A stretch of 64,000 bases of DNA, taken from contig JBAZLC010000001.1 of assembly GCA_041650415.1 (NCBI GenBank), forward strand, positions 66,998 through 130,997. Direction: 5' to 3'. The notes under the pieces are model-generated. The model was not told the DNA's origin. It saw only the letters and a list, made by a program, of their open reading frames with translations, and did no database searches. This document shows positions 1-21,190 of this stretch, piece after piece (the first letter of the stretch is position 1; every line of letters starts with the position of its first letter). Both the position numbers and the translations under genes were made by a program. The DNA is from Minisyncoccota bacterium. Lineage in GTDB: Bacteria > Patescibacteriota > Minisyncoccia > UBA6257 > UBA9933.

Positions 1-726
1 TAATACTTCGCAATTATTTGCCATAAACCATAAAATCGCCGCATAAGGATCGATATGATTGCAGGCATCGGAATCGGCGATTAAAAATTCATCATAATTA
101 GGGCATAGTTTTTTGTATGCCAAACGATTCATTGATTCTCTATTTAATAAAAATTTAACCATTAAATATATTCTTTTTGGCACGACATAGGACAACCTGA
201 ATAAAATATTATTTCTTAATATAATTGATAATTTAACTAATCTGCCTTTGAGATCTAAATCTTTATATTTTTTTACAGCGTAACCGCCGCTGGCCCACGG
301 CCTTACCTGCCAAGCCGGTTTAAATAAAATTAATCCGCTCGGTTTCAATACGCGCAACATTTCGTTTAAAGCATTATCAATATCGGGAATATGTTCAAAA
401 ACTGTATTGGTAAAAATGGCGTCGAAAGAATTATCTACAAATGGATATTTCTTTTCCGATTCTATTGTAAAAAACGGCTTATGATATAAATTCTTCAAAT
501 TTTCCGAAATATCAATCCCCGTATAATCATCAATGATGTCTTGAAATTTTCCGTTTCCACTGCCAATTTCAAGAACTTTTTTATCTTCTAAATTGAAATC
601 TGTTATAAATTTTTTAAGCTCCGCGTAAAAAGAATCCCCTTTTATTGTTTCGAAGCTAATTGGCGAAAAACTTAATTTACCGTGAAATTCAACTTCATAA
701 AATTTTTTGTATTTTTTAGAATCCAT
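1..726 (-). CDS. Class I SAM-dependent methyltransferase. Partial: the C-terminus runs off the window start.
   Basis: Minus-strand translation from the ATG at 726 gives MDSKKYKKF...VLEIGSGNGKF...FDAIFTNTVFEHIPD. It contains the Gly-rich motif I (LEIGSGNG) and the acidic post-I loop of Rossmann methyltransferases. The ORF is open to position 1. Confidence 0.6.
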   Translation of the reverse strand, partial: MDSKKYKKFYEVEFHGKLSFSPISFETIKGDSFYAELKKFITDFNLEDKKVLEIGSGNGKFQDIIDDYTGIDISENLKNLYHKPFFTIESEKKYPFVDNSFDAIFTNTVFEHIPDIDNALNEMLRVLKPSGLILFKPAWQVRPWASGGYAVKKYKDLDLKGRLVKLSIILRNNILFRLSYVVPKRIYLMVKFLLNRESMNRLAYKKLCPNYDEFLIADSDACNHIDPYAAILWFMANNCEVL

Positions 727-751
727 AATGGCTTAATTATAGCAATCTTAT

Positions 752-786
752 AAAAAGAAAGGGAGGGATATTTCCATATCCCTCCC
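752..786 (-). terminator. Rho-independent terminator downstream of the B12 radical-SAM gene.
   Basis: Perfect 11-bp stem gggagggatat / atatccctccc with loop ttcc. On the minus strand it is followed by a T-run (the A-run at 752-760 on the plus strand). Confidence 0.6.
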
Positions 787-789
787 AGG

Positions 790-2244
790 TTATTTTGTTC
801 CCATCGAATGCTCATAACGCTTTGCAGGAGCGCCAAGATTAAATGGGATTTTCAGACCGTTACGGACATCCCTTTCAAGGTAATCGCGAAGCGACACAAT
901 CTTTTCCGTACTAAGATAATCGGTATAAACATAAGATTTGTAGCCGCCATCAGGATTTCCCTTATAGTAATCCGCAATTTTGAGGTAATCCACTTCAACG
1001 CTGTAAAGCCGTTCGCCATTATGGGTGTAAACCCAAATTCCAGGCGAGTGCAAAACTGCGTCGTCGTAGTAAGCCGTTCCGGGATAAACCGAAATTACCG
1101 CCGCATCAAAATCATCAGGCCTTACGTCCAAAAGCCATTCGCGTGTTTCCATTACCGTATTTTCGGATTCACCTGGGTGACCAATCGACATTAACGCTTT
1201 TACTTTCAGCCCGCTTTTTTTCGCGATTTCTACGCATGCGGTATTTTGCGCTTTGGTTGATTTCTTATTCATACTTAAAAGCATTTTATCCGATCCGGAT
1301 TCAAAACCGACCAAAAGCCATCTGAAACCCGCCCGAAACATCGCTCTTGCCTGTTCTTCTGAAAACAAATTGGCGCGGATAAATCCCCTAAGCCGGAAAT
1401 CAACGCCCAGTTTGCTTTGAAGATCAGACACCGCATTCATAAGACTTACGAAAGTTTTGGGTTTTAAATTGAGTTCGTCATCATAGAACATAAACCCTTT
1501 TACTCCGTACGTTTTATAAAGCAACTCTATTTCCTGAACGATGTTTTCTACTGACCGCGTTCTTGTCTTGTGAAAAGTAGGAGACTTTCTCCCTCCGCAA
1601 AATCCGCAGTCAAACGGACACCCAAGCTGGCCGATAATGCTTAAAGCCCTTTCGCCGTCGATTGAATAATGATAACTATTGACGTCGATCAGATGCCGTG
1701 CCGGAAAAGGAAAACCGTTAAGCCGTGAATTATCGAGAAAAAGACCGGATTCCAAATCATCCGCGTCAACCACCTTTGAAACACCTGCTTCCAAGGCTGC
1801 GAATATCGCATTTTCGCCATCTCCCGCAACAACGACATCAAACATGGCAGTTAAATCAGAAAATGCTTTTGCCGCTCTACCATCAATGTTTTTGCGGCGT
1901 TCATTCTTGTAAGCGGCGTTAACCAGAGTCGCATGCGGACCGCCAAGAATAATTCGAGCCGTAGGTCTGTTTTGTCTTATCGCATTGGCTATTTTCACCA
2001 CTGCCGGCATTTGAGGCGTTGTCGCCGTTATGCCAAAAACAAAGATGTCCCGCCGCGATAGATAATCACAAACCATATCCGCGTAATTCGCCACTCCCGA
2101 TAAATCCAAAACTTCAACGCCATACCCTGATTGTTCCAGAACTGCCGCAACCTTCAAAACACCTATTGAAATAAAAACTCTTTCGTCGAGCAAAAATGCC
2201 GACGGCGGAATAATGAAACAAACAGAATCCGCTCTTTTTTTCAT
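790..2244 (-). CDS. B12-binding (class B) radical SAM enzyme, a likely C-methyltransferase-type protein.
   Basis: N-terminal Rossmann-like B12-binding region (VCFIIPPSAF...VLDLSG), then a CPFDCGFCGG radical-SAM CxxxCxxC motif. The ATG at 2244 has GGAAAGGGGTG about 9 nt upstream. The track ORF starts at an upstream GTG (2253). Confidence 0.8.
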   Translation of the reverse strand: MKKRADSVCFIIPPSAFLLDERVFISIGVLKVAAVLEQSGYGVEVLDLSGVANYADMVCDYLSRRDIFVFGITATTPQMPAVVKIANAIRQNRPTARIILGGPHATLVNAAYKNERRKNIDGRAAKAFSDLTAMFDVVVAGDGENAIFAALEAGVSKVVDADDLESGLFLDNSRLNGFPFPARHLIDVNSYHYSIDGERALSIIGQLGCPFDCGFCGGRKSPTFHKTRTRSVENIVQEIELLYKTYGVKGFMFYDDELNLKPKTFVSLMNAVSDLQSKLGVDFRLRGFIRANLFSEEQARAMFRAGFRWLLVGFESGSDKMLLSMNKKSTKAQNTACVEIAKKSGLKVKALMSIGHPGESENTVMETREWLLDVRPDDFDAAVISVYPGTAYYDDAVLHSPGIWVYTHNGERLYSVEVDYLKIADYYKGNPDGGYKSYVYTDYLSTEKIVSLRDYLERDVRNGLKIPFNLGAPAKRYEHSMGTK

Positions 2245-2361
2245 CTTTATCACCCCTTTCCTTATTTAAAGTAGTGTTAAATTGCTTTAAAAAGAAAAGC
2301 ACAAAAAGTTAATAAAGTCAATATTTATTTGTGTTGAACGACGGTAATTTAAATTATTTAA

Positions 2362-2416: not shown

Positions 2417-2944
2417 TTAGAAACAAGAGGCCATCGCACGCATGACAGGATCAAAATTCTGATTGTCAACCTCAGAAAGAGAAAACCATTTGATTTCACT
2501 GTATTTTCCGCTTTGTGGCGGGAAATATTTCATTTCTCCCCGTTTTACGCCCAACGAGAAAACAACAACCAGACTATGCCGTCCGTTTTCTTTAGGCGGA
2601 TGCTTACGCAAAGGAGAAACAAAAGAGTTGACGCACAGAAAATCAAGTTTGTTGAAATCCGAGCCAATTCCAAACTCTTCCTTCAAAACGCGATTCGCTG
2701 TTTCCATTGGCGATTCACCGGGAATGATTCCTCTTCCCATTGTCCACCACATCCGCGGATGTTCACGACGGAAACCAAGCAAAATTTTTTTACTTGAAAA
2801 TTCTGCGACAACCGGTACAACATCGACAAACGCCGGAACAAAATTATCGTAGAATTTTCCAAGTTCTTTGGCGGACAAATTACTTGACCTCCGACGAAAA
2901 TCACCATAAACAAAATGGTTTATCGCATGCCTGCACTTTTTCAT
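2417..2944 (-). CDS. NUDIX hydrolase.
   Basis: Nudix box GRGIIPGESPMETANRVLKEEFGI matches GX5EX7REUXEEXGU. Confidence 0.75.
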   Translation of the reverse strand: MKKCRHAINHFVYGDFRRRSSNLSAKELGKFYDNFVPAFVDVVPVVAEFSSKKILLGFRREHPRMWWTMGRGIIPGESPMETANRVLKEEFGIGSDFNKLDFLCVNSFVSPLRKHPPKENGRHSLVVVFSLGVKRGEMKYFPPQSGKYSEIKWFSLSEVDNQNFDPVMRAMASCF

Positions 2945-3030: not shown

Positions 3031-4209
3031 CTAAGACCTGATAGCGCGCAAAATGCCTTCGACGTCTTTATCGAAAGAATAATTCTTTATTATTTCAAGC
3101 GATTTTTTACCGAAAGATTGCCTCTTTTTGTCGTCTTTAACCAACTGTTCAAGGCAATAAACCAAATTTTCAATTTCTCCGGTTTTATAGATAAGACCGT
3201 TTTTATTTTCAAGCACTAAATCCGAAATCGCTCCGACAGTATCTGAAGCTATTATAGGCAATCCGAAACACATTGCCTCATTAACAACAATTCCCCAACA
3301 CTCATTAAAAGAGGGTATGACAAAAATATCGGCTATTGCGTAATATTCCGGCGTCTCGGTAAGATTTTTAAATCCGGCAAAAACAACATCCTTGAGATTG
3401 CGATCTCTGGCGTATTTTTCCAGCTCGGGACGTAGATTCCCATCCCCCACGAATATCAGCGACAAACTTTTAGTTTTCGGTTTATAGTTTTTAGCTAGCG
3501 ACTCGTACGCCTTTAATAAATCCATCGGTCTTTTTCTGTTTACCAATTTACCGACAAACAAAATAACAATATTATTTTTAACTTTTTCCCTTTCGCGGAC
3601 TTTTTTACGATCAATAGATTCTGATAACTTATAAAAATAATCGTTATCCGTGGCATAGGGCATGGAAATCAATTTATTTTCGGGCACGCCGTGATATTTA
3701 TAGAACTTTTTATCTTCATTTCCCATATACAGGAAATGTCTGATTTTTTTAAAAAACACCGTAAGAATGATTTTTTTAAGCCCTCTTTTCCATAAAGGCT
3801 TAACTAATTCGCAGGCAAAACAATTATCTCCGTGCATCGCTACCGAAATTCCCAAGAGAAACGCCGTCAACACGGCTAAAATATTCGTAAAAGAATTCCA
3901 CCCATGGACAAAAAGAAGATCGTATTTGCCGTTTTTTAATTCTCTCACTATCCCGAAATTTATTAATCCCAATAAATAATTTTCCGGCCTAGGCGAATAA
4001 TTTTTTAAAAACTTATAATTATAACCGTCTAAAAGAGGAAGATCCCATTTTATATTTTTTCCGAGCTCATGGTCAAAACTTTCTTTGCCAACTCCAAAAT
4101 CCCAACAAAAATAAACCGTTAAATCAACCTGCGGCTCTTTTGCCAATTTCTGGAAAAGCGGCACTTGATATTGAATCGGATGAGAGGTTAAAATCGCTAA
4201 TTTACGCAT
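3031..4209 (-). CDS. Glycosyltransferase family 4 (GT-B fold, retaining).
   Basis: C-terminal EX7E-type motif region PSFNECWGIVVNEAMCFGLPIIASD, with typical GT4 length and architecture. Confidence 0.8.
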   Translation of the reverse strand: MRKLAILTSHPIQYQVPLFQKLAKEPQVDLTVYFCWDFGVGKESFDHELGKNIKWDLPLLDGYNYKFLKNYSPRPENYLLGLINFGIVRELKNGKYDLLFVHGWNSFTNILAVLTAFLLGISVAMHGDNCFACELVKPLWKRGLKKIILTVFFKKIRHFLYMGNEDKKFYKYHGVPENKLISMPYATDNDYFYKLSESIDRKKVREREKVKNNIVILFVGKLVNRKRPMDLLKAYESLAKNYKPKTKSLSLIFVGDGNLRPELEKYARDRNLKDVVFAGFKNLTETPEYYAIADIFVIPSFNECWGIVVNEAMCFGLPIIASDTVGAISDLVLENKNGLIYKTGEIENLVYCLEQLVKDDKKRQSFGKKSLEIIKNYSFDKDVEGILRAIRS

Positions 4210-4354: not shown

Positions 4355-5281
4355 ATGAAAGAAAAGGTTTTGATAATCAAACCGGGATATTGCGAGGTTC
4401 TAACTAACGAATCGGGAAAAACAACAAGTCTGGGAGACGTTTTAAGAAGTACGGCGATCCTGCATCTTTACAAGGATTCTTCCGTAAGCTGGGTTACTGA
4501 CGAAGCAGCCATTCCCCTCCTTGGTGGAAATCCCTACATCGACAGGATTTTCCCTTTTAACTTAACAACCGTGCTCCAGCTCCAAGCGGAAAAATTCGAC
4601 GTCGTCATAAATCTCGAAAAAGTTCCGGGTATTTGCGCCTTTTCCGACTCGCTTAAGGGATGGCGAAGATACGGATTCAGGTTTGATTCTGAAACCGGCA
4701 CCGCCAAATCTTATGACGGCTCCCAACATGTTCTGGAAATCTGTTTCAGCGAAGAAGGCAAAAGAACCAATCAAAGATGCTGGGAGGAATTCGTTTTTGA
4801 GATGGTCGGTTCCAAGTGGCAAGGAGAAATGCCGGTATTGGGCTACAAACCCGAATCGCAAGAGATTTTCGACGTCGGGTTCAATCATCTCGTCGGCGCA
4901 AAATGGCCCACAAAAGCATGGCCGCTTGAAAGCTGGAAACAGCTTGAAAGCCTTATCGGAAATGATTTGTCAGTATCATGGCAAGAAGGAATTGATTCCA
5001 TAGAAAAATATATTGAATGGATAAATTCCTGCCGGACGGTCGTAACCAACGACAGCCTTGGATTGCACATTGCCCATGCGCTATCAAAGAAAATCATCGC
5101 CTTGTTCGGACCGACGTCGCCAAACGAAGTCTACGTAAAAGACGGAATAAAAATCATTCCAAACATTATTCCGCCTTGCATGCCGTGCTTCAGCAACAAA
5201 TGCCGCATGAATAAAGAGAGCTGCATGCACGACATCGACCCAAAAACAGTATTCAGAGAATTAAAAGCAATCAGCCGCTAG
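4355..5281 (+). CDS. Glycosyltransferase family 9 (heptosyltransferase-like) with a C-terminal Cys cluster.
   Basis: GT9 signature near the C-terminus (TNDSLGLHIAHALSKKIIALFGPTSP; compare TNDSGPMHLAAALGxPxVALFGPT). Four Cys in the last 40 aa (CMPCFSNKCRMNKESC). GGAGG sits 6 nt upstream of the ATG. Confidence 0.75.
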   Translation: MKEKVLIIKPGYCEVLTNESGKTTSLGDVLRSTAILHLYKDSSVSWVTDEAAIPLLGGNPYIDRIFPFNLTTVLQLQAEKFDVVINLEKVPGICAFSDSLKGWRRYGFRFDSETGTAKSYDGSQHVLEICFSEEGKRTNQRCWEEFVFEMVGSKWQGEMPVLGYKPESQEIFDVGFNHLVGAKWPTKAWPLESWKQLESLIGNDLSVSWQEGIDSIEKYIEWINSCRTVVTNDSLGLHIAHALSKKIIALFGPTSPNEVYVKDGIKIIPNIIPPCMPCFSNKCRMNKESCMHDIDPKTVFRELKAISR

Positions 5282-5301
5282 TGCAAAAGCGGCAAAACCA
5301 C

Positions 5302-5427: not shown

Positions 5428-6591
5428 ATGAAAACCGCTGAAAAGGAGCTTATTCTTGACGGCCACAAGCTTTGGCTACCCGATCACCGAAACAGGCTTT
5501 TGTCTTGGACCGCCGGCGAAAACATCGCGCCCATCACCATTGATTGCGCTTTAACTCGCCGATGCACATACCGTTGCGTTTATTGCTACGGCAAACTCCA
5601 GGCAAACGACGAAAAGAAAATCACAAAAGACGTTGTTTTCAGATTTTTAGACGATGCGGCAGAAATAGGCGTCCGCGCCATCAGCTTTGTCAGCGACGGC
5701 GAATCGACATGCTCACCACATTTCTACGATGCTGTCTTGCGGGGAAAAGCCAACGGAATGGATATGGCGGTCGGCACAAACGGCTATCTTCTCAAAGAGG
5801 AACGCCTTGAAGAAATTTTGCCCGCCTTAACGTACCTGCGTTTTAACATTTCAGCGGCAGAACCAAGACGGTATGCGGAGATTCACGGCTGCGACGAAAA
5901 GTGTTTTTATCGCGTTATCAAAACCATCAGGTCGTGCGTTGAGATAAAAAAAAGAAAAAAGCTTAACGTCACGATAGGACTTCAGATGGTTTTCTTGCCG
6001 GCATTTTCCGATCAGGTTTTACCCCTGGCGAAGCTAGGCAAAGAACTAGGCGTTGATTACACCATTTTCAAACATTGCAGTGACGATGAAAACGGAACCC
6101 TAAAAGTAGATTACGGCCAATACCACAACGAAACGACCGTCAATCTCTTGAAAACGGCCGAAACGCTTTCCGACGAAAAGAGTAATTATTCCGTGAAAGC
6201 CAAATGGTCTAAAATCATGGAGGGCAACAAGCGTTGTTACGAACAATGTTTCGGGCCGGCGTTTATCATGCAATTTTCCGGCTCCGGGTTGGTCGCGCCA
6301 TGCGGAATGTTGTTCGGCAAAGATTACAAAAAATACCACATCGGAAACATAGCCGAACAGTCGTTCAAGGAAATTTGGCAGTCCAAGAGATATCGCGAAG
6401 TTCTTAATCTCATCTCCTCGGAACGGTTTAACGCCAAAACAATGTGCGGCTATCTTTGCCTACAGCACAAAGTCAATGAATTCCTATGGGACTTAAAACG
6501 CCCGAAAGGAAAATCAGCGGAAAACATCGAGACGGCGCTAAAAAAATACGATCACAATTCATCGGCCGTCGTCCATAGAAACTTTATTTGA
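5428..6591 (+). CDS. Radical SAM enzyme with a C-terminal SPASM-like Cys-rich domain.
   Basis: CALTRRCTYRCVYCYG is a CxxxCxxC motif. There are additional C-terminal cysteines (CYEQC...PCG...CGYLC). AAGGAGGAA lies upstream of the ATG. Confidence 0.8.
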   Translation: MKTAEKELILDGHKLWLPDHRNRLLSWTAGENIAPITIDCALTRRCTYRCVYCYGKLQANDEKKITKDVVFRFLDDAAEIGVRAISFVSDGESTCSPHFYDAVLRGKANGMDMAVGTNGYLLKEERLEEILPALTYLRFNISAAEPRRYAEIHGCDEKCFYRVIKTIRSCVEIKKRKKLNVTIGLQMVFLPAFSDQVLPLAKLGKELGVDYTIFKHCSDDENGTLKVDYGQYHNETTVNLLKTAETLSDEKSNYSVKAKWSKIMEGNKRCYEQCFGPAFIMQFSGSGLVAPCGMLFGKDYKKYHIGNIAEQSFKEIWQSKRYREVLNLISSERFNAKTMCGYLCLQHKVNEFLWDLKRPKGKSAENIETALKKYDHNSSAVVHRNFI

Positions 6592-7850: not shown

Positions 7851-7904
7851 TTAAAATAAAAGAGACCCCAAGAGCAAAAGGGGTCTCCGGCTCTAAAAAG
7901 AGCC
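7851..7904 (-). terminator. Tandem hairpin terminator downstream of the E1-beta gene.
   Basis: gagacccc...ggggtctc plus ggctct aaaa agagcc, followed by a T-run on the minus strand. Confidence 0.55.
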
Positions 7905-9834: not shown

Positions 9835-9900
9835 GGCAAACACCTCCTTCTAAGATTATTTTTTTGTGTTATGTACTTTTTAGCTTTTACCATAAATTTT

Positions 9901-10927: not shown

Positions 10928-10974
10928 CCCGATAGGTCTTAAAAAACTTCATAAAAAGGAAGGAGGTGATTTTA

Positions 10975-12202: not shown

Positions 12203-12252
12203 ACCGCAGTAGGCAATATAGAAATATATTCGTCCTACTGCGGCATTTTTTT
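12203..12252 (+). terminator. Rho-independent terminator. It overlaps the stop codon of the convergent GT9 gene.
   Basis: Stem ccgcagtagg...cctactgcgg followed by TTTTTTT. Confidence 0.6.
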
Positions 12253-15601: not shown

Positions 15602-16186
15602 CTAACCTTCTATTGCTTTTCTGACATTTGAGTCGTCGGGCCAATAATTTAAAATCTCTTCGCCTATCTTTTCCGTATTCTCTTTGTCTCCTTTTAAGCG
15701 ATATAAATCAAACAAATTATAAAGAACCGGCGGGAGATTCGGCCCAATAGTATAAGCTTTTTTAAAATATTCTTCTGATTTCTTATAATCTTCCTCGCTA
15801 CCCGAAAACCTCCAAAGAGTCTCATTAAAAACTCCGCCCATGATAAGATGACGGACATTATTATTGAAAAGATATTTATCTATATAATTTACCAAGAAAC
15901 GCGCCGTTGGTTCCTGAAAACCGGATTGAGTAATTACGCCCAAAATATCCGAAGAGAAAAATTTAACTACTTCTTCCTGACCTATTGGCGAATAAAAATT
16001 AAAAACTCCGCCAACCTGATTTTCAAATTGTTCTGCTGTATAAGTCCTACCTGATTGCATATCTGTTAGAGTATTAATATAAGCCTGTGCTTTTCCCCAC
16101 GGTAAAATTGCGCCTAAAACGATACCTATAATCGTAAGTATTATAAAAATAATAATAATAAACTGTTTTAATAAGATTTTATACAT
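15602..16186 (-). CDS. Membrane-anchored hypothetical protein with a TPR-like C-terminus.
   Basis: N-terminal transmembrane helix (IIIIFIILTIIGIVLGAIL). C-terminal helical-repeat-like sequence (YFKKAYTIGPNLPPVLYNLFDLYRLKGD). The start is uncertain. With the ATG at 16186 it would overlap the upstream gene's stop by 8 nt. Confidence 0.4.
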   Translation of the reverse strand: MYKILLKQFIIIIFIILTIIGIVLGAILPWGKAQAYINTLTDMQSGRTYTAEQFENQVGGVFNFYSPIGQEEVVKFFSSDILGVITQSGFQEPTARFLVNYIDKYLFNNNVRHLIMGGVFNETLWRFSGSEEDYKKSEEYFKKAYTIGPNLPPVLYNLFDLYRLKGDKENTEKIGEEILNYWPDDSNVRKAIEG

Positions 16187-17669
16187 CTTTATTTTTAAAA
16201 TTAGACTTATAAACGGCAAAAGCAAAAAGCAAGAAAAGATTCAAATAAATCGGTGAAACATCAAATAAAACTATACCCTGCACAAGATAAGCTACCGGTA
16301 TAGCAAACATTAAAGCTTTAATTAAAGTAATTTGTTGTTTTGTGTCTGCTTCAACTAATTTATTTTGATTTTTTTCATTTTTATCTATATCAACCAGCGG
16401 CTTTTTAAAAAGAAGATAATAAAATGCAATAAATATTCCCAAATAACTTAACAAACCCAAAATTCCGGTTTCCGCCAAATAATCAAGATAAATATTGTGC
16501 GCCCTATCAAACCAAGCGCCAAAACCAATATTGGGATTAAAATATTTAATATTAAAATGATGATCAAAAACTTGAAGAAAATTTTCCGGTCCCCATCCCA
16601 AAATCGGCCGTTCTTTAAATCCATCTATTGCCATCTTCCAAATAGTTACCCTATCTTGGAAGGTGTTCGCCGAAAGAGAAATGCTTAAAATACGTGAAAC
16701 GCCGGGAACTGATTTTATAACCGGAGTATCTTTAAATTGAACTAAGGTAAAAACTAAAACCACCATTACCGCACCAGCTAAAATAATCCATTTCCGCCAA
16801 CGTTTTGAAGAAAAAGCGAGACAGGCTAAAAAAGCCAACACTGAAGCGATAAGTCCGAGAAATGCTCCTCTTGTGCCTGCCATAAAAAAGACAATTAAAA
16901 GCGCTAATGCCGAAACCCATAAAGCTATTGCGCCATAAGAAAATAATTTATTTTTATATTTTGAAACCAAAAGATAACTTATGTAAAAAAGCGAAAAAAT
17001 AATATAGGCCGCCACATAAGAAGAATTTCCAATTGAACCTTCGAACCTGAATCCCGAATTGGAAAATGCCAAGCCAATAAACGGATGAAACATTTGGTAA
17101 TAAGGACCACCAGTACCACTAAGAATATCTTCTGTTCCTCCAGTTGGAGTATTACGAGTTGTAAAATCGGCATCAACATACTTTAAGCCCGCCGCGACGC
17201 CATAAAGGCTAATTCCAATAGCGCCGATAATCATCATAGTAAAAATTATCCGCCAATCTTTTTCTTTGTCAAAAAGAAGCGCCAAAAGCGCGAAAAAAAT
17301 ATAAAAACATAAAATTTGCAATCCCCCTTCTCCTCTTTCAAAGTTTGACCAAAAAGAATAACTCGGAGAAACCCCAAACAAACACGCCAATAAAAATATT
17401 GCCGCAAAAATCGAAACAGTAATAATTAAAGGGTTTTTTATTAATTGTTTTAAACGACTAATAATTTCATTTACGCCATTTTGATTGAGTAAAACTCCCA
17501 GTAAGAAAAAAATAAACGATAAACCGATTATAGTCCTAAAAAAAACGTATTTACCGACAATAAACGGGAAAAGGGTGGACGGCGTAACAATAATTACCAT
17601 CAATGGGACTAAATACAATAAATATTTAGAAATTTTGAAAGCGTTAAACATAAATATAATTTTATCCAT
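16179..17669 (-). CDS. O-antigen ligase / Wzy_C-family polytopic membrane protein. Candidate O-oligosaccharyltransferase or glycan polymerase.
   Basis: About 12 predicted transmembrane segments. The periplasmic-loop motif GWGPENF...FDRAHNIYLDYLAETGILG matches the Wzy_C signature (conserved H/R). Confidence 0.65.
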   Translation of the reverse strand: MDKIIFMFNAFKISKYLLYLVPLMVIIVTPSTLFPFIVGKYVFFRTIIGLSFIFFLLGVLLNQNGVNEIISRLKQLIKNPLIITVSIFAAIFLLACLFGVSPSYSFWSNFERGEGGLQILCFYIFFALLALLFDKEKDWRIIFTMMIIGAIGISLYGVAAGLKYVDADFTTRNTPTGGTEDILSGTGGPYYQMFHPFIGLAFSNSGFRFEGSIGNSSYVAAYIIFSLFYISYLLVSKYKNKLFSYGAIALWVSALALLIVFFMAGTRGAFLGLIASVLAFLACLAFSSKRWRKWIILAGAVMVVLVFTLVQFKDTPVIKSVPGVSRILSISLSANTFQDRVTIWKMAIDGFKERPILGWGPENFLQVFDHHFNIKYFNPNIGFGAWFDRAHNIYLDYLAETGILGLLSYLGIFIAFYYLLFKKPLVDIDKNEKNQNKLVEADTKQQITLIKALMFAIPVAYLVQGIVLFDVSPIYLNLFLLFAFAVYKSNFKNKDV

Positions 17670-17729: not shown

Positions 17730-17752
17730 ATTAATCCATAAAGGACTAAACG

Positions 17753-20700
17753 TTAGGTCTTGGCTGTGACTGTCGACAAGGCAGGAATGCCATCCACCTT
17801 CAAATCTGTGATGGTGTCTGACAAATCGCCGTCGCCGTTACCGTCGTAACCAAGGTCTGCTTCATCAGCCTCGAACAAGATATTACCCAAGGCGCTAACT
17901 GAGAACTGATAGGTATCATTGTTAGCTGAAGCCGCAGAGTTCCTGATTGTCAGGTATCTCCAGCTGCCGCCGTCAATTTTCCTTTCAGTCGCAGTTAATG
18001 TTGAAGTAGCGAAGCTAATGCTTGACGCAGCACCTGTTGCGGTGGTTGACGCCAAATATCCACTGCCGCTATTCCAGCCCGATGTGTCGGATTGACCGCC
18101 TCCCATAGCTGAAGCATAAATCTTGAAGCTTGTGGTTGTGGTGGCCGAACCGCCATTGGTGAATGTCATTGTCGTGGTCGACAAAGAAATCGCGGCTGTA
18201 CCGTTGTTGGTAACTTTAAACACCGCAAGGTTTTGTCCCGCCGAAGTACCCACTTGAGTGGCTGTTGTCGGCGAAATCGCCTCAATCTTCACGTTCTGCG
18301 GAGTAATATAGCTCACGCCGGACGATGAAGCTGAACCGGTGATTGTACCGGCTGCAGCGCTAACCGCACCCTTTGAAACGATATGTGTCGTAGAAGCAAC
18401 ACTAAACTTGAAGTCATTTCCAAGAATAGACGAACCTCCAGCGGCAATATCCGCTTTCGCGTAAATTGTGACGCCAGTGGTCGGAACCGGAGCGGACAAC
18501 AAATTGTCCGAAGCGGTAAACGTTACTTCACATTGCGTACCCGTGCAGTTATCAAACTGCGGAGCTGAAGCAAACGGAGTCGTCGCAGATCCTTCGTAAA
18601 GTCTGATATTCGTTAATGTGGTTGTCGCCAAAGCGGTAGCCACCGAAGTCAATTTCAACGAAGTAATCTTTTGGGCTTCATATTGAGATGTCAATTTGAA
18701 AGCCAAGTAAACGCCGTTTGAAGTGCCAACGTTAACAATTTGATTAGACGAAGGCGAAGCTCCTGAACCGGAAACCAACGAGAATATCACCTTACCCGAT
18801 GAAACAATGGTCATCGCTTGTCCGCTACCGGCATAAGTGATGTCTGTTCCATGAGTTAATGAATTACCCGTAGTATAACCTGTCGCAGCAACTGCAGAAG
18901 ATGAAGACGCTACAACAAATCTTTGCGTCCCAGAACCATCGCCAGCAGTATCGGCTACAACGTTCGCCTTCAAATGAAGGGTTACCGGAGTAGCTTTCGG
19001 AACAACTATCGGAGTCGAGAAGCTGAATGTTACAGTCGCGGCATTGCTAGCCGTTGAAGCTGTTGTTGACAACGCAGTTGTTTCGTTGTCTTTAAACATT
19101 CTTAAGTTCGAAACGTCCGCAAGGGCTCCTGATGCACTGACGGTGCTGCTTACAGTAACCGAAGTTACTTTAACATCTTCTCCGCCTGATTGAGCATTAA
19201 GCTGAATCTGGGCGAATTCGTAATCGCTCGAACCTACAACAACCGAATTGGCAACCGGGGTTGAAAGTGTTGTTACAACAAGTTTGGCAGCTTGAACCGG
19301 AATGGTCAAACCGTCTACTGCTGCAACATTCAAACCTGTATCGCCATCGCTCAAAAGATCGTTTGAAGTGAGCCTCTTTGCAGAAGTCAAATCAAAGCTT
19401 GTGACTTTGTAGGTATCGCTGGCTGTCGCGCTTGAGCTGATTGAACCTTCAATCGAAATCGTGCTGTCTTGACCAGCGGTCAAAATCGGATACGAAGAAA
19501 GGTTAACAGTTGTCTGAGCGCCAACTCCAATTGAAGAAGCCGCAACGCTGTAAACAATCGAATTGTTTACTTTAACGTAAACCGTTCCGCTAAGAACGTG
19601 CGCGCTCGTAGCGTAAGTTGACGAAGTCGCGACATAGAACTTCACCTGGCGAAGCTCGTAATCTTCTCCTGTCGGCTTTACAGTGAATTTAGCAAGAACG
19701 ATATTATTCGCTCCTGGGACCACTGCTGAGCTCGGAGAATCTGTAGCTCTTTGTAAGGTAATGCCTCCTGAACCGATTGTAGTCATGTTCCAAGCATTAC
19801 CGATCGGGAAGCTTGTGTCGTTTCCTGTCCCTGTCGGGATTATGGAAACTCCAGTTGTCGCGCCACGAACATCCAAATCGTAATCGTTGTAGGTTACGAG
19901 TTTGATTGTTTTTGTGGTTCCGCCGGCAATCTTCGCTTTAATGGTGAAGTCTTTTGTAAGACCTTTATCAATAAAGTACGGAGTTGTCGGTTTAAATGTG
20001 ACGTACTGGCCGGACGGCTGGGCTGTTGCCACAACTGTTCCGGTATTGTCTTCCAAGGTTACATCTTTGTAATCAGCCGCGGCAGCATTGCCGTAGTTAT
20101 ACAATGTCCAACCATAAAGATACACTCCTTCCTTGCTGGAAGTTTCCGCAATGCGGTATTTAGTGATTTCTTGCAAGCTGGCCGGATCAACATTCAATGT
20201 TGAAGAACCGGTTGATGTAAGAATGCTCAAAGTAACGGTGCCCAATGAAGAGCTACCATCAACAATGTTCATTGTCGCGCCAGTCAACGGGAATGAACCC
20301 GAGAATGTCGCGTTTGCGGCAATAGCGCTCGCCGAAGCGATGCTAAAGTTCAAGGTTCCGCTGTAAGCGCCAGCGAGAAGATTGAAGCGGACTGTTGCCG
20401 TTTCGCTCTTTCCAGCTTTTACCACAATCGGATCTTGCGTCATGAAGATCGTAATGGTGTTATCGGCATTAACCGAAGTTGACACCTGACCATGACGAAC
20501 TCCCGCAGAGTCAATGACGTCTACGCCGTTCAAATTGGTGTTAGCCACGAAACCACTCTTTTGGAAAGTGATTGACGTAATGCTGACATCTGTTGAACCG
20601 GCGGTGAACACAACTTTCAAACCTGCGTTGAAAGCTGTTCCGCTACCAAGAGTTTTGGCTGCCGGACTATCCGAAGCAACCGCAACCGACAAAGCAGCTC

Positions 20701-21190
20701 CAACCGGGGTTGTTGTAGTACCTCCACCAGTTGTTGTACCTCCTGTCGCAGCAACCGACGCCACGTAGGCGCGAGTTTTAGGTCCGAAATATCCGACGGC
20801 CGGAGAAATTCCGACAGCGGCTTGATATTTCGCCAAAGCTTTTACGGTCAATGAACCATAATATGTGGTTTCATTTCCCGCTGAACCTGCTCCAGTTGAA
20901 GCGACTGCATAACCCTTAGCGTTCAAAAATTGCTGTAAGGCTTTGACATCGTCTCCTTTAGAACCCAAGGTGAGGTCTCGGGTAAAATTATAGGAAGCGG
21001 TTGTCGTAGTCTGAGCGCCGGACAATTGCGATTGCAATGCCGAAATTTGAGCCAAAAGCGACGCGATTTGCGCCTGCAGATCATCAACGGTCGCGGCTGA
21101 AGCCGGCAAAACCATAGCTGATCCAGAAAGTGTTATCGCCGTAGCCATTGAAAGGGCAACGGACGTAATCTTTCTAAATGATTTGCTCAT
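17753..21190 (-). CDS. Giant (1145 aa) secreted surface protein. It has a signal peptide, a peptidoglycan-binding domain and long Thr/Ser/Gly/Ala-rich Ig-like beta-sandwich repeats, and is likely an S-layer or cell-wall-anchored protein.
   Basis: Signal peptide MSKSFRKITSVALSMATAITLSGSAMVLPASA|ATV, then coiled-coil-like LQAQIASLLAQISALQSQL. PG_binding_1-like LTLGSKGDDVKALQQFLNAKGYAV...YGSLTVKALAKYQAAVGI. TTGGGTTTTP linker. About 900 aa of low-complexity S/T/A/G/V beta-strand repeats. No LPXTG motif. Confidence 0.8.
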   Translation of the reverse strand: MSKSFRKITSVALSMATAITLSGSAMVLPASAATVDDLQAQIASLLAQISALQSQLSGAQTTTTASYNFTRDLTLGSKGDDVKALQQFLNAKGYAVASTGAGSAGNETTYYGSLTVKALAKYQAAVGISPAVGYFGPKTRAYVASVAATGGTTTGGGTTTTPVGAALSVAVASDSPAAKTLGSGTAFNAGLKVVFTAGSTDVSITSITFQKSGFVANTNLNGVDVIDSAGVRHGQVSTSVNADNTITIFMTQDPIVVKAGKSETATVRFNLLAGAYSGTLNFSIASASAIAANATFSGSFPLTGATMNIVDGSSSLGTVTLSILTSTGSSTLNVDPASLQEITKYRIAETSSKEGVYLYGWTLYNYGNAAAADYKDVTLEDNTGTVVATAQPSGQYVTFKPTTPYFIDKGLTKDFTIKAKIAGGTTKTIKLVTYNDYDLDVRGATTGVSIIPTGTGNDTSFPIGNAWNMTTIGSGGITLQRATDSPSSAVVPGANNIVLAKFTVKPTGEDYELRQVKFYVATSSTYATSAHVLSGTVYVKVNNSIVYSVAASSIGVGAQTTVNLSSYPILTAGQDSTISIEGSISSSATASDTYKVTSFDLTSAKRLTSNDLLSDGDTGLNVAAVDGLTIPVQAAKLVVTTLSTPVANSVVVGSSDYEFAQIQLNAQSGGEDVKVTSVTVSSTVSASGALADVSNLRMFKDNETTALSTTASTASNAATVTFSFSTPIVVPKATPVTLHLKANVVADTAGDGSGTQRFVVASSSSAVAATGYTTGNSLTHGTDITYAGSGQAMTIVSSGKVIFSLVSGSGASPSSNQIVNVGTSNGVYLAFKLTSQYEAQKITSLKLTSVATALATTTLTNIRLYEGSATTPFASAPQFDNCTGTQCEVTFTASDNLLSAPVPTTGVTIYAKADIAAGGSSILGNDFKFSVASTTHIVSKGAVSAAAGTITGSASSSGVSYITPQNVKIEAISPTTATQVGTSAGQNLAVFKVTNNGTAAISLSTTTMTFTNGGSATTTTSFKIYASAMGGGQSDTSGWNSGSGYLASTTATGAASSISFATSTLTATERKIDGGSWRYLTIRNSAASANNDTYQFSVSALGNILFEADEADLGYDGNGDGDLSDTITDLKVDGIPALSTVTAKT

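What the first reader, a model, noticed from the sequence alone, without database searches (positions are those of the whole stretch)
1..21190. Radical-SAM-rich glycan and modification island next to a giant S/T-rich surface protein: a candidate uncharacterised surface-protein glycosylation or modified-sugar system
Seventeen consecutive genes encode five radical-SAM enzymes (one B12-binding class-B type, two SPASM paralogs, one 285-aa twitch-like type and one 411-aa type). They also encode two GT9 and one GT4 glycosyltransferases, a split TPP-dependent E1 alpha/beta pair, a class-III aminotransferase, two SAM methyltransferases, a NUDIX hydrolase (a role in the nucleotide-sugar pool is possible), a TPR-like membrane protein and a Wzy_C/O-antigen-ligase-family protein. 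They end directly at a 1145-aa Thr/Ser/Gly-rich, PG-binding surface protein. Five radical-SAM enzymes in one glycan locus is very unusual. The gene set matches no textbook pathway (O-antigen, teichoic acid, pseudaminic acid). It suggests synthesis of a heavily tailored sugar (C-methylated, aminated, oxidised, two-carbon branched) that is then transferred to the adjacent surface protein or to another cell-envelope acceptor. No precursor peptide is visible, so I favour a sugar substrate over a RiPP substrate.
Basis: partly seen in the sequence, partly recalled or inferred. Interest (0 to 1): 0.85.

Follow-up and report, generated by a model that had tools for sequence, protein, structure and literature searches.

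The report
Mosaic radical-SAM surface-glycan gene island
A chromosomal sugar-coat gene island in an ultra-small (CPR) bacterium is two parts joined: a locus shared with related CPR bacteria, and an inserted six-gene radical-SAM/thiamine/glycosyltransferase cassette that recurs, uncharacterised, in hundreds of anaerobes from many phyla.

Summary
The gene content is as described. There are five radical-SAM (rSAM) enzymes, two GT9s, a GT4, a split E1 alpha/beta pair, a class-III aminotransferase, methyltransferases, NUDIX, Wzy_C and a 1145-aa Thr/Ser/Ala/Gly-rich PG-binding protein. None of the rSAMs reaches the cutoff of any curated family, housekeeping ones included.

It is not one 17-gene unit. 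Six contiguous genes (4355-10800: small GT9, two SPASM rSAMs, E1 beta, E1 alpha, 285-aa rSAM) form a cassette. A scan of species-representative genomes found 333 relatives of its 285-aa rSAM. The best 80 loci span about ten phylum-level groups. There it sits with an ArnC/DPM1-like GT2, a B12-rSAM and GT-C/TPR membrane proteins, and often beside type IV pilin genes.

The remaining genes form a backbone that two other CPR genomes carry without the cassette. The backbone continues at least 10 kb left of the window, into more glycosyltransferases and dTDP-sugar genes.

A sugar substrate is favoured. One rSAM family is fused to a nucleotide-sugar epimerase domain beside GDP-heptose genes. In some loci E1 is replaced by a split transketolase. 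No conserved precursor peptide exists.

Glycosylation of the neighbouring surface protein is plausible: the adjacency is kept in one of two relatives. It remains untested. The cassette looks uncharacterised.

The parts
1..726 (-). Backbone: class-I SAM methyltransferase. Its C-terminal end lies beyond the window; it is 270 aa on the source contig.
   Evidence: Pfam Methyltransf_11/23/25. Full gene in L002 12219-13031. A 268-aa gene sits in the same position after the B12-rSAM in L177/L179.
790..2253 (-). Backbone: B12-binding-domain radical SAM enzyme, gene-called as 484 aa. It is not a member of the cassette's B12-rSAM group.
   Evidence: Pfam B12-binding + Radical_SAM. The best NCBIfam hit, PhpK, scores 122 against a cutoff of 600. 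The closest solved structure is AprD4, 6fd2, E 5.6e-15. More than 4800 homologues at 60-70% identity occur in CPR and Omnitrophota. It is 69% identical to the gene at the same position in L177 and about 23% identical to cassette B12-rSAMs.
2417..2944 (-). NUDIX hydrolase, a local addition of unknown role.
   Evidence: Pfam NUDIX, E 6.9e-10. No NCBIfam hit. Absent from L103 and L177.
3031..4209 (-). Backbone: GT4 glycosyltransferase.
   Evidence: Pfam Glycos_transf_1, E 1.8e-37. It is 50% identical to the L103 gene that directly abuts the rSAM411 homologue.
4355..5281 (+). Cassette gene 1: small GT9-family glycosyltransferase (308 aa).
   Evidence: Pfam Glyco_transf_9 on the C-terminal part only. 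Below the heptosyltransferase cutoffs, 57 against 134.6. Homologues at a median 61% identity lie next to rSAM285 in 58 of 80 loci.
5428..6591 (+). Cassette gene 2: radical SAM/SPASM enzyme (387 aa).
   Evidence: Pfam Radical_SAM + SPASM. Homologues at a median 67% identity in 22 of 80 loci.
6666..7739 (-). Cassette gene 3: radical SAM/SPASM enzyme (357 aa).
   Evidence: Pfam. The closest solved relative is BlsE, cytosylglucuronate decarboxylase, E 2e-9, followed by BtrN and DesII. Homologues in 50 of 80 loci, and in 31 of the 34 loci with full flanks.
7893..8921 (-). Cassette gene 4: TPP-dependent E1 beta subunit. Gene-called as 342 aa; the longest ORF runs to 8990.
   Evidence: Pfam Transket_pyr + Transketolase_C. 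NCBIfam PDH E1 beta scores 280 against a cutoff of 321. Present in 46 of 80 loci.
8932..9843 (-). Cassette gene 5: TPP-dependent E1 alpha subunit. No E2 or E3 gene lies nearby.
   Evidence: Pfam E1_dh, E 3e-57. NCBIfam PDH_E1_alph_y scores 270 against a cutoff of 394. Present in 44 of 80 loci. A split transketolase takes its place in 6 loci, and 2 further loci carry both kinds.
9943..10800 (-). Cassette gene 6 and the anchor of this analysis: 285-aa radical SAM with a Cys-rich C-terminal (twitch/short-SPASM-like) domain.
   Evidence: Pfam Radical_SAM. 2164 homologues at 58-71% identity. Invariant Cys at C24/C28/C31 plus C212, C228, C256, C262 and C265. AF2 model with pLDDT 90.3. Fold neighbours are anSME, SkfB, BlsE, PqqE, SpeY and DesII at TM about 0.5.
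10966..12201 (+). Backbone: 411-aa radical SAM (gene-called as 408 aa), probably acting on a nucleotide sugar.
   Evidence: Pfam. The closest solved relatives are viperin-like enzymes. 1689 homologues. A 710-aa fusion with an SDR epimerase/dehydratase domain lies beside GDP-heptose-type genes and a GT9. A GFO_IDH_MocA-like ORF lies directly upstream in 45 of 83 loci (the family call rests on L092).
12235..13464 (-). Backbone: large GT9-family glycosyltransferase (409 aa), convergent with the 411-aa rSAM.
   Evidence: Pfam Glyco_transf_9, E 3e-20. 59% identical to the gene at the same position in L103. The same arrangement occurs in L177 and, with a diverged GT9, in L090.
13473..14819 (-). Backbone: class-III (omega-type) aminotransferase.
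   Evidence: Pfam Aminotran_3, E 1.8e-97. The closest structures are class-III and amine transaminases. 74% identical in L103 and present in L177.
14927..15571 (-). Backbone: class-I SAM methyltransferase (214 aa).
   Evidence: Pfam Methyltransf_23/25/11. 54% identical in L103.
15602..16225 (-). Backbone: small membrane protein with a helical, TPR-like C-terminal part. Gene-called as 194 aa.
   Evidence: No significant Pfam or NCBIfam hit. A 203-aa counterpart follows Wzy_C in L103 (32% identity) and in L177. L103 also has a Wzy_C+TPR fusion of 743 aa.
16179..17669 (-). Backbone: Wzy_C-domain membrane protein. It could be a polymerase, a ligase or an O-oligosaccharyltransferase.
   Evidence: Pfam Wzy_C, E 1.4e-25. 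44% identical in L103. Present in L177/L179.
17753..21190 (-). 1145-aa secreted Thr/Ser/Ala/Gly-rich protein with PG_binding_1. It is the first gene of the co-directional string that runs into Wzy_C.
   Evidence: Pfam PG_binding_1 at residues 79-141. Composition. No terminator-like site between it and Wzy_C, and a hairpin with T-run at 21396-21373 upstream. A remote homologue (27% over 327 aa, E 1e-7) sits upstream of the Wzy_C genes in L103.

Best explanation
The region is the right-hand two thirds of a chromosomal cell-envelope glycan island of at least 31 kb. The organism is a Candidatus Paceibacterota (CPR) bacterium. The island is a mosaic of two parts.

(1) Backbone locus, shared with other CPR bacteria. 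It reads: surface protein, Wzy_C, small membrane protein, methyltransferase, class-III aminotransferase, large GT9, 411-aa rSAM, GT4, (NUDIX), B12-domain rSAM, methyltransferase. Further glycosyltransferases and dTDP-sugar genes follow to the left.

(2) Six-gene cassette: small GT9, two SPASM rSAMs, E1 beta, E1 alpha and a 285-aa twitch-like rSAM. It lies in the divergent intergenic region between GT4 and the 411-aa rSAM, and the same cassette spreads across phyla.

Inferred mechanism. All enzymes tailor activated sugars under anoxic conditions.
- rSAM enzymes of the BlsE/BtrN/DesII/AprD4/viperin type oxidise, dehydrate or decarboxylate a nucleotide-linked or polyprenyl-phosphate-linked sugar, possibly a heptose.
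- The stand-alone TPP E1 pair adds a two-carbon unit from a 2-oxo acid to the resulting carbonyl.
- The aminotransferase and methyltransferases decorate the sugar further.
- The GT9, GT4 and GT2 enzymes build the glycan.
- The Wzy_C protein polymerises it or ligates it to an envelope acceptor. The upstream Thr/Ser-rich protein is the leading candidate acceptor.

Shown: gene content, the mosaic structure, cassette conservation, the association with glycosyltransferases, and the absence of precursor peptides.
Inferred: every chemical step, the identity of the sugar, and the acceptor.
For: Domains.

Organism and source: 100% hits are named Candidatus Paceibacterota. The source contig is 125 kb, and the island continues to the left.

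Cassette conservation:
- 333 relatives of the 285-aa rSAM were found in a scan of one genome per species.
- In the best 80 loci: small GT9 58, SPASM357-type 50, E1 beta 46, E1 alpha 44, at 45-67% identity.
- Gene order is conserved.
- An ArnC/AglJ-like GT2 occurs in 60 of 80 loci and a GT-C-like or TPR membrane protein in 40. In 72 of 80 loci at least one glycosyltransferase lies beside the anchor.

Insertion:
- In L103 and L177/L179 the homologues of GT4 and rSAM411 are directly adjacent. The rest of the backbone is collinear at 32-74% identity.
- Not one of the backbone genes occurs in the 80 cassette loci.

Sugar substrate:
- An SDR-rSAM411 fusion lies beside GmhA-, HddA- and HddC-like genes and a GT9.
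- A GFO_IDH_MocA-like ORF lies directly upstream of rSAM411 homologues in 45 of 83 loci.
- The nearest solved relatives are BlsE, BtrN, DesII, AprD4 and viperin-like enzymes.
- E1 is replaced by a split transketolase in 6 loci.
- PDH-E1-like pairs attach pyruvate-derived C2 branches to deoxysugars (PMC4802897).

Not a RiPP system: no small ORF is conserved across 84 loci.

Surface protein: it is co-directional with Wzy_C, with no terminator-like site between them. A remote homologue sits upstream of the Wzy_C genes in L103.
Against: - No enzyme here has a characterised orthologue. All NCBIfam scores are far below cutoff, so each reaction is guessed from distant relatives.
- The rSAM285 fold matches peptide-modifying enzymes (anSME, SkfB, PqqE) as well as it matches sugar-modifying ones.
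- No heptose-nucleotide pathway, initiating phosphoglycosyltransferase or Wzx flippase was found in the 74 kb available.
- The window's copy of the cassette lacks the GT2 and GT-C partners that usually accompany it.
- No repeats or mobility genes mark the insertion. Loss of the cassette from the two relatives is formally possible.
- The surface-protein adjacency is missing in L179.
Confidence: 0.6

Rival explanations
1. The glycan, or a single tailored sugar, goes to a non-protein acceptor such as peptidoglycan, a secondary cell-wall polymer, a capsule or a membrane glycolipid. On this view the neighbouring Thr/Ser-rich protein is only a bystander, a cell-wall-anchored protein encoded next to envelope genes.
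For: - Wzy_C domains occur in polymerases and lipid A-core ligases as well as in O-oligosaccharyltransferases. The only NCBIfam hit is a weak one to IctB.
- L103 has a separate O_anti_polymase protein, and L178 has a classical Bac_transf/Wzy_C set.
- L179 has the backbone without a visible Thr/Ser-rich protein.
- None of the 80 cassette loci has such a protein as a conserved neighbour. Only L022 carries one T/S-rich ORF.
Against: - The big gene heads the same-strand string, with no terminator-like site before Wzy_C.
- A diverged homologue keeps that position in L103.
- Elsewhere the cassette sits beside type IV pilin genes interleaved with TPR-bearing membrane proteins that look like GT-C enzymes. 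That arrangement fits protein acceptors.
Confidence: 0.3
2. The rSAM/SPASM enzymes are peptide (RiPP) or protein maturases. The glycosyltransferases would then decorate the modified peptide or protein, not a free sugar.
For: - SPASM and twitch rSAMs are best known as peptide maturases.
- rSAM285's sequence and fold neighbours include SkfB, anSME and PqqE.
- NCBIfam lists many weak RiPP-maturase hits.
Against: - No small ORF is conserved beside the cassette in 84 loci.
- Intergenic gaps in the window are at most 165 bp.
- The constant partners are a TPP enzyme pair and glycosyltransferases.
- The SPASM357 type is closest to BlsE, BtrN and DesII.
- The rSAM411 family is fused to a nucleotide-sugar SDR domain.
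Confidence: 0.07
3. The cassette makes a non-glycan small molecule, for example a lipid head group, an isoprenoid-derived compound or a cofactor. The E1 pair would serve as a DXS-like or acetoin-type carboligase, and the GT9-like protein would not act as a surface-glycan transferase.
For: - B12-rSAMs often methylate lipids. The top NCBIfam hits for the cassette B12-rSAM include the 'lipid biosynthesis B12-binding/radical SAM' model and hopanoid methylases, all far below cutoff.
- E1 alpha has a weak DXP_synthase_N match.
- The minimal Nitrospirota version has only E1 alpha, E1 beta, GT9 and the rSAM, next to thiamine genes.
Against: - A polyprenyl-phosphate-type GT2 (60 of 80 loci) and GT-C-like or TPR membrane proteins (40 of 80) are regular partners.
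- In CPR genomes the cassette lies inside glycan loci with flippase, GT4 and deacetylase genes.
Confidence: 0.12

Closest known systems
Two-carbon branched-chain deoxysugar pathways of actinomycete antibiotics: Plm8/Plm9 in paulomycin, AviB1/AviB2 in avilamycin. Yersiniose YerE is a functional analogue.
   Same: A stand-alone pair of pyruvate-dehydrogenase E1 alpha/beta homologues, with no E2 or E3, is embedded among sugar-tailoring enzymes and glycosyltransferases. In those pathways the pair transfers a pyruvate-derived C2 unit onto a keto-sugar (PMC4802897).
   Different: - Here the partners are two to four radical SAM enzymes and GT9-family transferases, not NDP-hexose 4,6- and 2,3-dehydratases.
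- The hosts are anaerobes and CPR bacteria.
- The product is an envelope glycan, not an antibiotic.
- Orthology with Plm8/9 or AviB1/2 could not be tested because no sequences were available.
Radical-SAM sugar tailoring enzymes of aminoglycoside and nucleoside antibiotic pathways: BtrN, AprD4, DesII, BlsE, SpeY. Also viperin-like nucleotide dehydratases.
   Same: They are the nearest solved relatives of three of the five rSAMs, by sequence: SPASM357, rSAM411 and the B12-rSAM. BlsE, SpeY, DesII and viperin also appear among the fold neighbours of rSAM285. They have the same radical SAM core plus a twitch, SPASM or B12-like auxiliary domain, and they act on sugars, cyclitols or nucleotides.
   Different: Similarity is remote: E-values from 1e-3 to 1e-15 and TM about 0.5. 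No curated family cutoff is met, so reaction types cannot be transferred.
Polyprenyl-phosphate sugar systems built from a GT2 plus a GT-C: ArnC/ArnT, GtrB/Gtr, DPM1/PMT/TMTC, and TfpW pilin arabinosylation.
   Same: Outside the window the cassette usually travels with an ArnC/AglJ-like GT2 and with PMT_2-type or TPR-bearing membrane proteins. In many delta-proteobacterial loci these are interleaved with type IV pilin genes.
   Different: The window's own copy lacks both partners. None of these known systems contains radical SAM or TPP enzymes. The GT-C assignment of the TPR proteins rests on the PMT_2 hit of one group and on sequence appearance for the others.
PglL/PilO-type O-oligosaccharyltransferase protein glycosylation, and Wzy/WaaL-type polymerase or ligase steps.
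   Same: A Wzy_C-domain membrane protein is encoded directly downstream of a secreted Ser/Thr-rich protein, inside a glycan assembly locus.
   Different: The Wzy_C domain cannot distinguish an oligosaccharyltransferase from a ligase or a polymerase. No curated model matches, and no glycosylation data exist.
GDP-/ADP-heptose pathways with GT9 heptosyltransferases: LPS inner core, S-layer glycan of Aneurinibacillus, Campylobacter capsule heptoses (from general knowledge).
   Same: There are two GT9-family enzymes. Homologues of the 411-aa rSAM and of the B12-rSAM lie beside GmhA-, HddA-, HddC- and GmhB-like genes and GT9s in other genomes.
   Different: No heptose-nucleotide genes occur in the 74 kb seen here. 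Both GT9s score below the heptosyltransferase cutoffs. CPR bacteria are not known to make LPS.

Membership tests
Housekeeping radical SAM families (MoaA, QueE, HemW, RlmN, NrdG, PflA) | Score at or above the curated NCBIfam/TIGRFAM cutoff for the family | tested here: not met
   The best such hits are MoaA at 63 against a cutoff of 325 and QueE at 32 against 206. No HemW or RlmN hit was listed. All five rSAMs are below every cutoff.
RiPP radical SAM/SPASM maturase systems | A precursor-peptide gene conserved next to the maturase | tested here: not met
   Small ORFs of 18-95 aa in and around the cassette were clustered across 84 loci. The largest family covers 6 related loci and looks like antisense noise.
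RiPP radical SAM/SPASM maturase systems | Radical SAM core plus a SPASM or twitch auxiliary Fe-S domain | tested here: met
   Pfam SPASM on two proteins. Five invariant extra Cys in rSAM285. The fold is nearest to anSME, SkfB and BlsE. This feature is shared with sugar-acting enzymes, so it does not discriminate.
TPP-dependent two-carbon branching of sugars (Plm8/9, AviB1/B2 type) | Paired E1 alpha and E1 beta homologues without E2/E3, inside a sugar-tailoring/glycosyltransferase cluster | tested here: met
   E1_dh and Transket_pyr/Transketolase_C lie adjacent. No E2 or E3 gene occurs in the window or L002. The pair is conserved with glycosyltransferases in 44-46 of 80 loci.
TPP-dependent two-carbon branching of sugars (Plm8/9, AviB1/B2 type) | An NDP-4-keto-sugar-forming dehydratase that supplies the acceptor carbonyl | tested here: inconclusive
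   An SDR epimerase/dehydratase and a dTDP-sugar isomerase lie 8-10 kb to the left in L002. No such gene is a conserved member of the cassette. A radical SAM dehydrogenase may play this role instead, which is inference.
TPP-dependent two-carbon branching of sugars (Plm8/9, AviB1/B2 type) | Demonstrated transfer of a pyruvate-derived C2 unit to a sugar | not testable with these tools
   This needs enzyme assays or structural analysis of the glycan.
LPS-type GT9 heptosyltransferases (WaaC/WaaF/WaaQ) | Score above the curated heptosyltransferase model cutoffs | tested here: not met
   The small GT9 scores 57.4 and the large GT9 66.9 against the 134.6 cutoff of TIGR02195. The Pfam GT9 domain itself is met.
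LPS-type GT9 heptosyltransferases (WaaC/WaaF/WaaQ) | ADP- or GDP-heptose biosynthesis genes available | tested here: not met
   tblastn with GmhA-, HddA- and HddC-like proteins from L090 found nothing in the window plus L002. The rest of the genome was not available.
Wzy-dependent polysaccharide (O-antigen or capsule type) locus | Wzy_C-domain polymerase or ligase together with several glycosyltransferases and NDP-sugar genes | tested here: met
   Wzy_C, GT4 and two GT9s. GT2, Glyco_trans_1_2, a second GT4, dTDP_sugar_isom and an SDR lie to the left.
Wzy-dependent polysaccharide (O-antigen or capsule type) locus | Initiating phosphoglycosyltransferase (Bac_transf or WecA type) and a Wzx flippase | tested here: not met
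   Neither domain appears among the genes of the window or L002. One unannotated 435-aa gene at the edge of L002 is cut off and unassigned.
PglL/PilO-type protein O-glycosylation | Wzy_C-domain transferase encoded beside a secreted Ser/Thr-rich acceptor protein | tested here: met
   They are adjacent on the same strand with an 83-bp gap and no terminator-like site. The arrangement is repeated in L103 but is not seen in L179.
PglL/PilO-type protein O-glycosylation | The glycan is actually attached to the protein | not testable with these tools
   This needs glycoproteomics or a reconstituted transfer assay.
Polyprenyl-phosphate sugar GT2 + GT-C systems (ArnC/ArnT, DPM1/PMT) | An ArnC/DPM1-like GT2 and a GT-C membrane transferase in the locus | tested here: not met
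   This is true for the cassette elsewhere: GT2 in 60 of 80 loci and GT-C-like proteins in 40 of 80. tblastn of those proteins against the window plus L002 gave only a weak N-terminal GT2 match and no GT-C.

The most novel reading that the evidence does not exclude
The six-gene cassette is a horizontally mobile, anaerobe-specific pathway. It would use radical SAM chemistry plus a TPP carboligase to build a so far unknown C-branched or chain-extended sugar. That sugar would be handed, via GT9, polyprenyl-phosphate GT2 and GT-C/TPR enzymes, to surface proteins: pilins in Geobacter-like bacteria, and surface-layer or wall proteins in CPR and anammox bacteria. This would make it a new, widespread protein-glycosylation system.
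Probability: 0.25. Interest if true: 0.8.

Novelty: new variant of a known kind. Interest (0 to 1): 0.62.

Why it matters
Surface glycans and glycoproteins are the main interface between CPR episymbionts and their hosts. They also matter for the pili and S-layers of anammox and metal-reducing bacteria.

The cassette defined here has a twitch-type rSAM, SPASM rSAM(s), a stand-alone E1 alpha/beta pair or a split transketolase, and a small GT9. Its 285-aa rSAM has 333 relatives among species-representative genomes, and the best 80 loci span about ten phylum-level groups. Its proteins are 45-67% identical across those groups. It matches no curated family, and five full-text searches returned no paper describing it.

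If it makes a radical-tailored, C2-extended sugar, it would add new anaerobic carbohydrate chemistry. It would also give a handle for typing or perturbing the surfaces of organisms that are mostly uncultured. The minimal four-gene version in Nitrospirota is a tractable starting point for biochemistry.

Tried and rejected
- **Housekeeping rSAMs.** Rejected by NCBIfam cutoffs.
- **One conserved 17-gene unit.** Rejected. None of the non-cassette genes occurs in the 80 cassette loci, and two CPR relatives have the backbone without the cassette.
- **The window's B12-rSAM as part of the cassette.** Rejected. It is about 23% identical to cassette B12-rSAMs, against 45-67% for the true members.
- **RiPP precursor search.** No conserved small ORF was found.
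- **Mobile-element signatures around the insertion.** There are no meaningful direct or inverted repeats. No transposase or integrase domain turned up among the genes scanned.
- **Heptose-nucleotide genes in the window plus L002.** None found.
- **Fold search of the rSAM285 model.** It places the enzyme in the SPASM/twitch clade but cannot separate sugar from peptide substrates.
- **Literature.** Five full-text searches returned no paper describing this gene combination. Only the E1-pair precedent was useful.
- **First look-up of the 411-aa rSAM by exact sequence.** It failed because the longest ORF starts at a GTG upstream of the called start.
- **Not attempted.** A phylogeny to prove the direction of transfer, orthology tests against Plm8/9 or AviB1/2 (sequences unavailable), and structure models of the other enzymes.

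Full report
**Observation**

- Partial class-I methyltransferase, 1-726(-).
- B12-binding/radical SAM protein, 790-2253(-).
- NUDIX, 2417-2944(-).
- GT4, 3031-4209(-).
- Small GT9, 4355-5281(+).
- Two radical SAM/SPASM proteins, 5428-6591(+) and 6666-7739(-). They are 24% identical.
- E1 beta, 7893-8921/8990(-), and E1 alpha, 8932-9843(-).
- 285-aa radical SAM, 9943-10800(-).
- 411-aa radical SAM, 10966-12201(+).
- Large GT9, 12235-13464(-).
- Class-III aminotransferase, 13473-14819(-).
- Methyltransferase, 14927-15571(-).
- 207-aa membrane protein, 15602-16225(-).
- Wzy_C protein, 16179-17669(-).
- 1145-aa protein, 17753-21190(-), with an N-terminal signal-like segment and PG_binding_1. Its composition is 14% Thr, 13% Ser, 13% Ala and 9% Gly.

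NCBIfam places none of the five radical SAM proteins in any curated family. The best scores are 35-122 bits against cutoffs of 131-775.

**Source and extent**

Exact-sequence look-ups locate the window on a 125-kb metagenome contig. NCBI names the 100%-identical proteins 'Candidatus Paceibacterota bacterium'.

A second copy of the contig (L002) shows that the island continues to the left of window position 1. There it carries the complete 270-aa methyltransferase, a GT2, a Glyco_trans_1_2 protein, an asparagine-synthase-like protein, a second GT4, a dTDP-sugar isomerase and an SDR epimerase/dehydratase.

To the right, everything beyond 22.4 kb is housekeeping: ClpB, HtrA, ClpP, H+-PPase, NusA, ParB, DnaE, ThrRS, MiaA, GatB, ThyA, GyrB, SecA, MurB and others. 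The island is therefore chromosomal, at least 31 kb long, and ends at the big surface-protein gene.

**A promiscuous six-gene cassette**

The 285-aa radical SAM protein has 2164 homologues at 58-71% identity in very different phyla.

Neighbourhoods of three of them already showed a recurring set: E1 alpha, E1 beta, a GT9 of about 310-320 aa, and the small rSAM. The Nitrospirota version consists of these four genes only.

A scan of one genome per species found 333 relatives. I analysed the best 80 loci. They come from Thermodesulfobacteriota and 'Deltaproteobacteria', Geobacter, Brocadia and other Planctomycetota, Nitrospirota, Omnitrophota, Nitrospinota, Ignavibacterium, Hydrogenedentota and a few CPR.

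BLASTP of the window proteins against all ORFs of these loci gave the following counts out of 80:

| Window protein | Loci with a homologue |
|---|---|
| Small GT9 | 58 |
| SPASM357 type | 50 |
| SPASM387 type | 22 |
| E1 beta | 46 |
| E1 alpha | 44 |
| B12-rSAM | 44 |
| 411-aa rSAM, large GT9, aminotransferase, NUDIX, GT4, Wzy_C, 1145-aa protein | 0 each |

Among the 34 loci with at least 8 kb on both sides the figures are 31, 27, 26 and 26 for SPASM357, E1 beta, E1 alpha and the small GT9.

Median identities to the window proteins are:
- SPASM387: 67%
- small GT9: 61%
- rSAM285: 58%
- E1 beta: 52%
- E1 alpha and SPASM357: 45%
- B12-rSAM: only 23%

The window's B12-rSAM therefore belongs to a different subfamily and is not part of the cassette.

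**What travels with the cassette elsewhere**

De novo clustering of locus ORFs gives the canonical order: SPASM rSAM, E1 alpha, E1 beta, GT2, B12-rSAM, a 216-aa membrane protein, small GT9, rSAM285.
- The GT2 occurs in 60 of 80 loci. It is about 260 aa, and its best NCBIfam hits are ArnC and AglJ, that is, polyprenyl-phosphate glycosyltransferases. Both hits are far below cutoff.
- Forty loci carry PMT_2-type GT-C proteins or large membrane proteins with C-terminal TPR repeats.
- In 23 loci, all delta-proteobacterial in type, these are interleaved with type IV pilin genes and pilR/S/C/T. The loci are phylogenetically related, so they do not count as 23 independent observations.
- In 72 of 80 loci at least one glycosyltransferase lies beside the anchor gene.
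- In six loci, mostly Planctomycetota, the E1 pair is replaced by a split transketolase-like pair (N-terminal and C-terminal halves). Two further loci have both kinds. The conserved requirement therefore seems to be a TPP-dependent two-carbon transfer, not pyruvate dehydrogenase as such.

**The backbone and the insertion**

The 411-aa rSAM is a second widespread family: 1689 hits at 50-62% identity in Patescibacteria and Planctomycetota. A metagenome scan gave 80 more loci.

- **L103**, a 112-kb groundwater CPR contig, reads: GT4 (50% identity), rSAM411 (52%), large GT9 (59%), aminotransferase (74%), methyltransferase (54%), small membrane protein (32%), Wzy_C (44%). Then follow a methyltransferase, a 743-aa Wzy_C+TPR protein and a Thr/Ser/Ala/Gly-rich ORF.
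- **L177/L179**, a second CPR genome, reads: Wzy_C (804 aa), Wzy_C (471 aa), a 203-aa protein, SDR, methyltransferase, aminotransferase, GT9, rSAM (404 aa), GT4, B12-rSAM (69% identity), a 268-aa protein.

In both genomes GT4 and the 411-type rSAM are direct, divergent neighbours. In the window the six cassette genes lie exactly between them. The simplest reading is that the cassette was inserted into an older CPR glycan locus. No repeats or mobility genes mark the junctions, so loss from the two relatives cannot be excluded without phylogenies.

GC content is heterogeneous. The rSAM and E1 genes run at 0.42-0.475, and the GT, methyltransferase and Wzy genes at 0.32-0.385.

**Sugar or peptide**

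Several lines favour activated sugars.
- Members of the rSAM411 family occur as 710-aa fusions with an N-terminal SDR epimerase/dehydratase domain. In L090 this fusion sits beside GmhA-like, GHMP-kinase (HddA-like) and nucleotidyltransferase (HddC-like) genes and two more SDRs. A GT9 is convergent with it, as in the window.
- In 45 of 83 loci a GFO_IDH_MocA-like oxidoreductase ORF directly precedes the rSAM. The family call rests on the L092 annotation.
- An Omnitrophota homologue of the window's B12-rSAM lies in a Bac_transf/GT4/GT9/Wzy_C/GmhB-like locus.
- The nearest solved relatives are BlsE, BtrN and DesII for SPASM357, viperin-like enzymes for rSAM411, and AprD4 for the B12-rSAM.
- No small ORF is conserved with the cassette in 84 loci.

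Against over-interpretation: the confident AF2 model of rSAM285 (pLDDT 90.3) matches anSME, SkfB, BlsE, PqqE, SpeY and DesII about equally, at TM around 0.5. The fold alone therefore does not decide the substrate class.

**Mechanism (inferred)**

By analogy with Plm8/Plm9 and AviB1/B2, PDH-E1-like pairs attach a pyruvate-derived two-carbon chain to keto-deoxysugars (PMC4802897). On that basis I propose the following steps.
- The twitch/SPASM rSAMs generate a carbonyl or otherwise activate a position on a nucleotide-linked or polyprenyl-phosphate-linked sugar without oxygen.
- The E1 pair adds a C2 unit.
- The small GT9 transfers the product.
- In the backbone, the AprD4-like and viperin-like rSAMs, the omega-type aminotransferase and the methyltransferases would produce a deoxy/amino/methyl sugar. 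The large GT9 would transfer it.
- Wzy_C would then polymerise or ligate the glycan.

None of these steps is shown. No heptose-nucleotide genes, initiating transferase or flippase were found in the 74 kb available.

**The surface protein**

The 1145-aa gene heads the same-strand string leading into Wzy_C. The gap is 83 bp with no terminator-like site, and a hairpin with T-run lies upstream of the big gene. These are consensus matches only.

In L103 a 567-aa partial ORF with the same composition sits upstream of the Wzy_C genes. It shows 27% identity over 327 residues (E 1e-7) to the window protein. In L179 no such protein is visible within the roughly 1.4 kb of locus that remains upstream.

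The adjacency is thus kept in one of two relatives. This is compatible with a PglL/PilO-like role for Wzy_C, but it is weak evidence.

**Comparison with known systems, and novelty**

As a class, this is a bacterial envelope-glycan locus, which is a known kind. The cassette itself has two to four radical SAM enzymes, a stand-alone E1 pair or split transketolase, and a small GT9. Elsewhere it also has an ArnC-like GT2 and GT-C/TPR proteins. It matches no curated family. Five full-text searches returned no paper describing this combination.

I rate it a new variant of a known kind. The finding is of real but moderate interest. The most valuable product of this analysis is the definition of a widespread, uncharacterised cassette with a tractable minimal form.

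Noticed in passing
L003, L025, L026, L028, L039, L040, L042, L045, L047, L053, L057, L059, L061, L075, L080 (about 1-3 kb downstream of the rSAM285 homologue): In delta-proteobacterial and Thermodesulfobacteriota genomes the cassette ends convergently at one or two type IV pilin genes (N_methyl). These are interleaved with 600-770-aa membrane proteins carrying C-terminal TPR repeats, followed by pilR, pilS, pilC and pilT/B. This suggests pilin glycosylation, but the loci are related to each other.
   Followed up: partly
L011, L013, L019, L022, L046, L076 (also L069 and L087, which have both kinds): In these mostly Planctomycetota loci the E1 alpha/beta pair of the cassette is replaced by a split transketolase-like pair of about 275 aa and about 180 aa. 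It is a non-orthologous swap between two TPP enzymes that move two-carbon units.
   Followed up: partly
L090 8001-10133 (P0147, 710 aa) and neighbours: This is a natural fusion of an SDR nucleotide-sugar epimerase/dehydratase domain with the 411-aa-type radical SAM. It lies next to GmhA-, HddA- and HddC-like genes, a ribulose-phosphate 3-epimerase and a GT9, in a marine metagenome contig.
   Followed up: partly
L006 / L014 7025-10849: The Nitrospirota version is a minimal four-gene cassette: E1 alpha, E1 beta, GT9 and rSAM. It lies directly downstream of a thiamine biosynthesis block (thiS, thiG, thiE, thiC) and upstream of two MNT/HepT toxin-antitoxin pairs.
   Followed up: no
L015, L017 (Candidatus Brocadia), L012, L016, L018: Anammox loci keep the 285-aa rSAM with a GT2, PMT_2, B12-rSAM and up to three SPASM rSAMs. 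They lack the E1 pair and the small GT9 within 10 kb, so the cassette is modular.
   Followed up: no
window 790-21190, per-kb GC: GC content alternates gene by gene. Radical SAM and E1 genes run at 0.42-0.475, and the big protein at 0.46-0.49. The GT, methyltransferase and Wzy_C genes run at 0.32-0.385.
   Followed up: partly
window 21373-21396 (-) and 21675-22424 (-): A strong terminator-like hairpin (9 pairs plus a T-run) lies between the big surface-protein gene and a 249-aa polytopic membrane protein. That protein has no family assignment, only a weak sub-threshold holin-like hit. It separates the island from clpB.
   Followed up: no
L177 8297-9916 / L179 2422-4041 and 15030-15396: In the related CPR genome the backbone GT4 is fused to a PDDEXK_3 nuclease-like domain. 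A second PDDEXK_3 gene lies upstream of the Wzy_C pair.
   Followed up: no
L022 12965-15001 (-): A 679-aa ORF with 24% Thr+Ser lies next to the PMT_2 gene of a Planctomycetota cassette locus. Among all fetched loci it is the only other Thr/Ser-rich large ORF besides the window and L103.
   Followed up: no
window 62448-63587 (-), 59201-60301 (-): A 379-aa protein has only a weak bactofilin match, and a 366-aa protein next to a lactate permease has no Pfam hit. Both are unrelated to the island.
   Followed up: no
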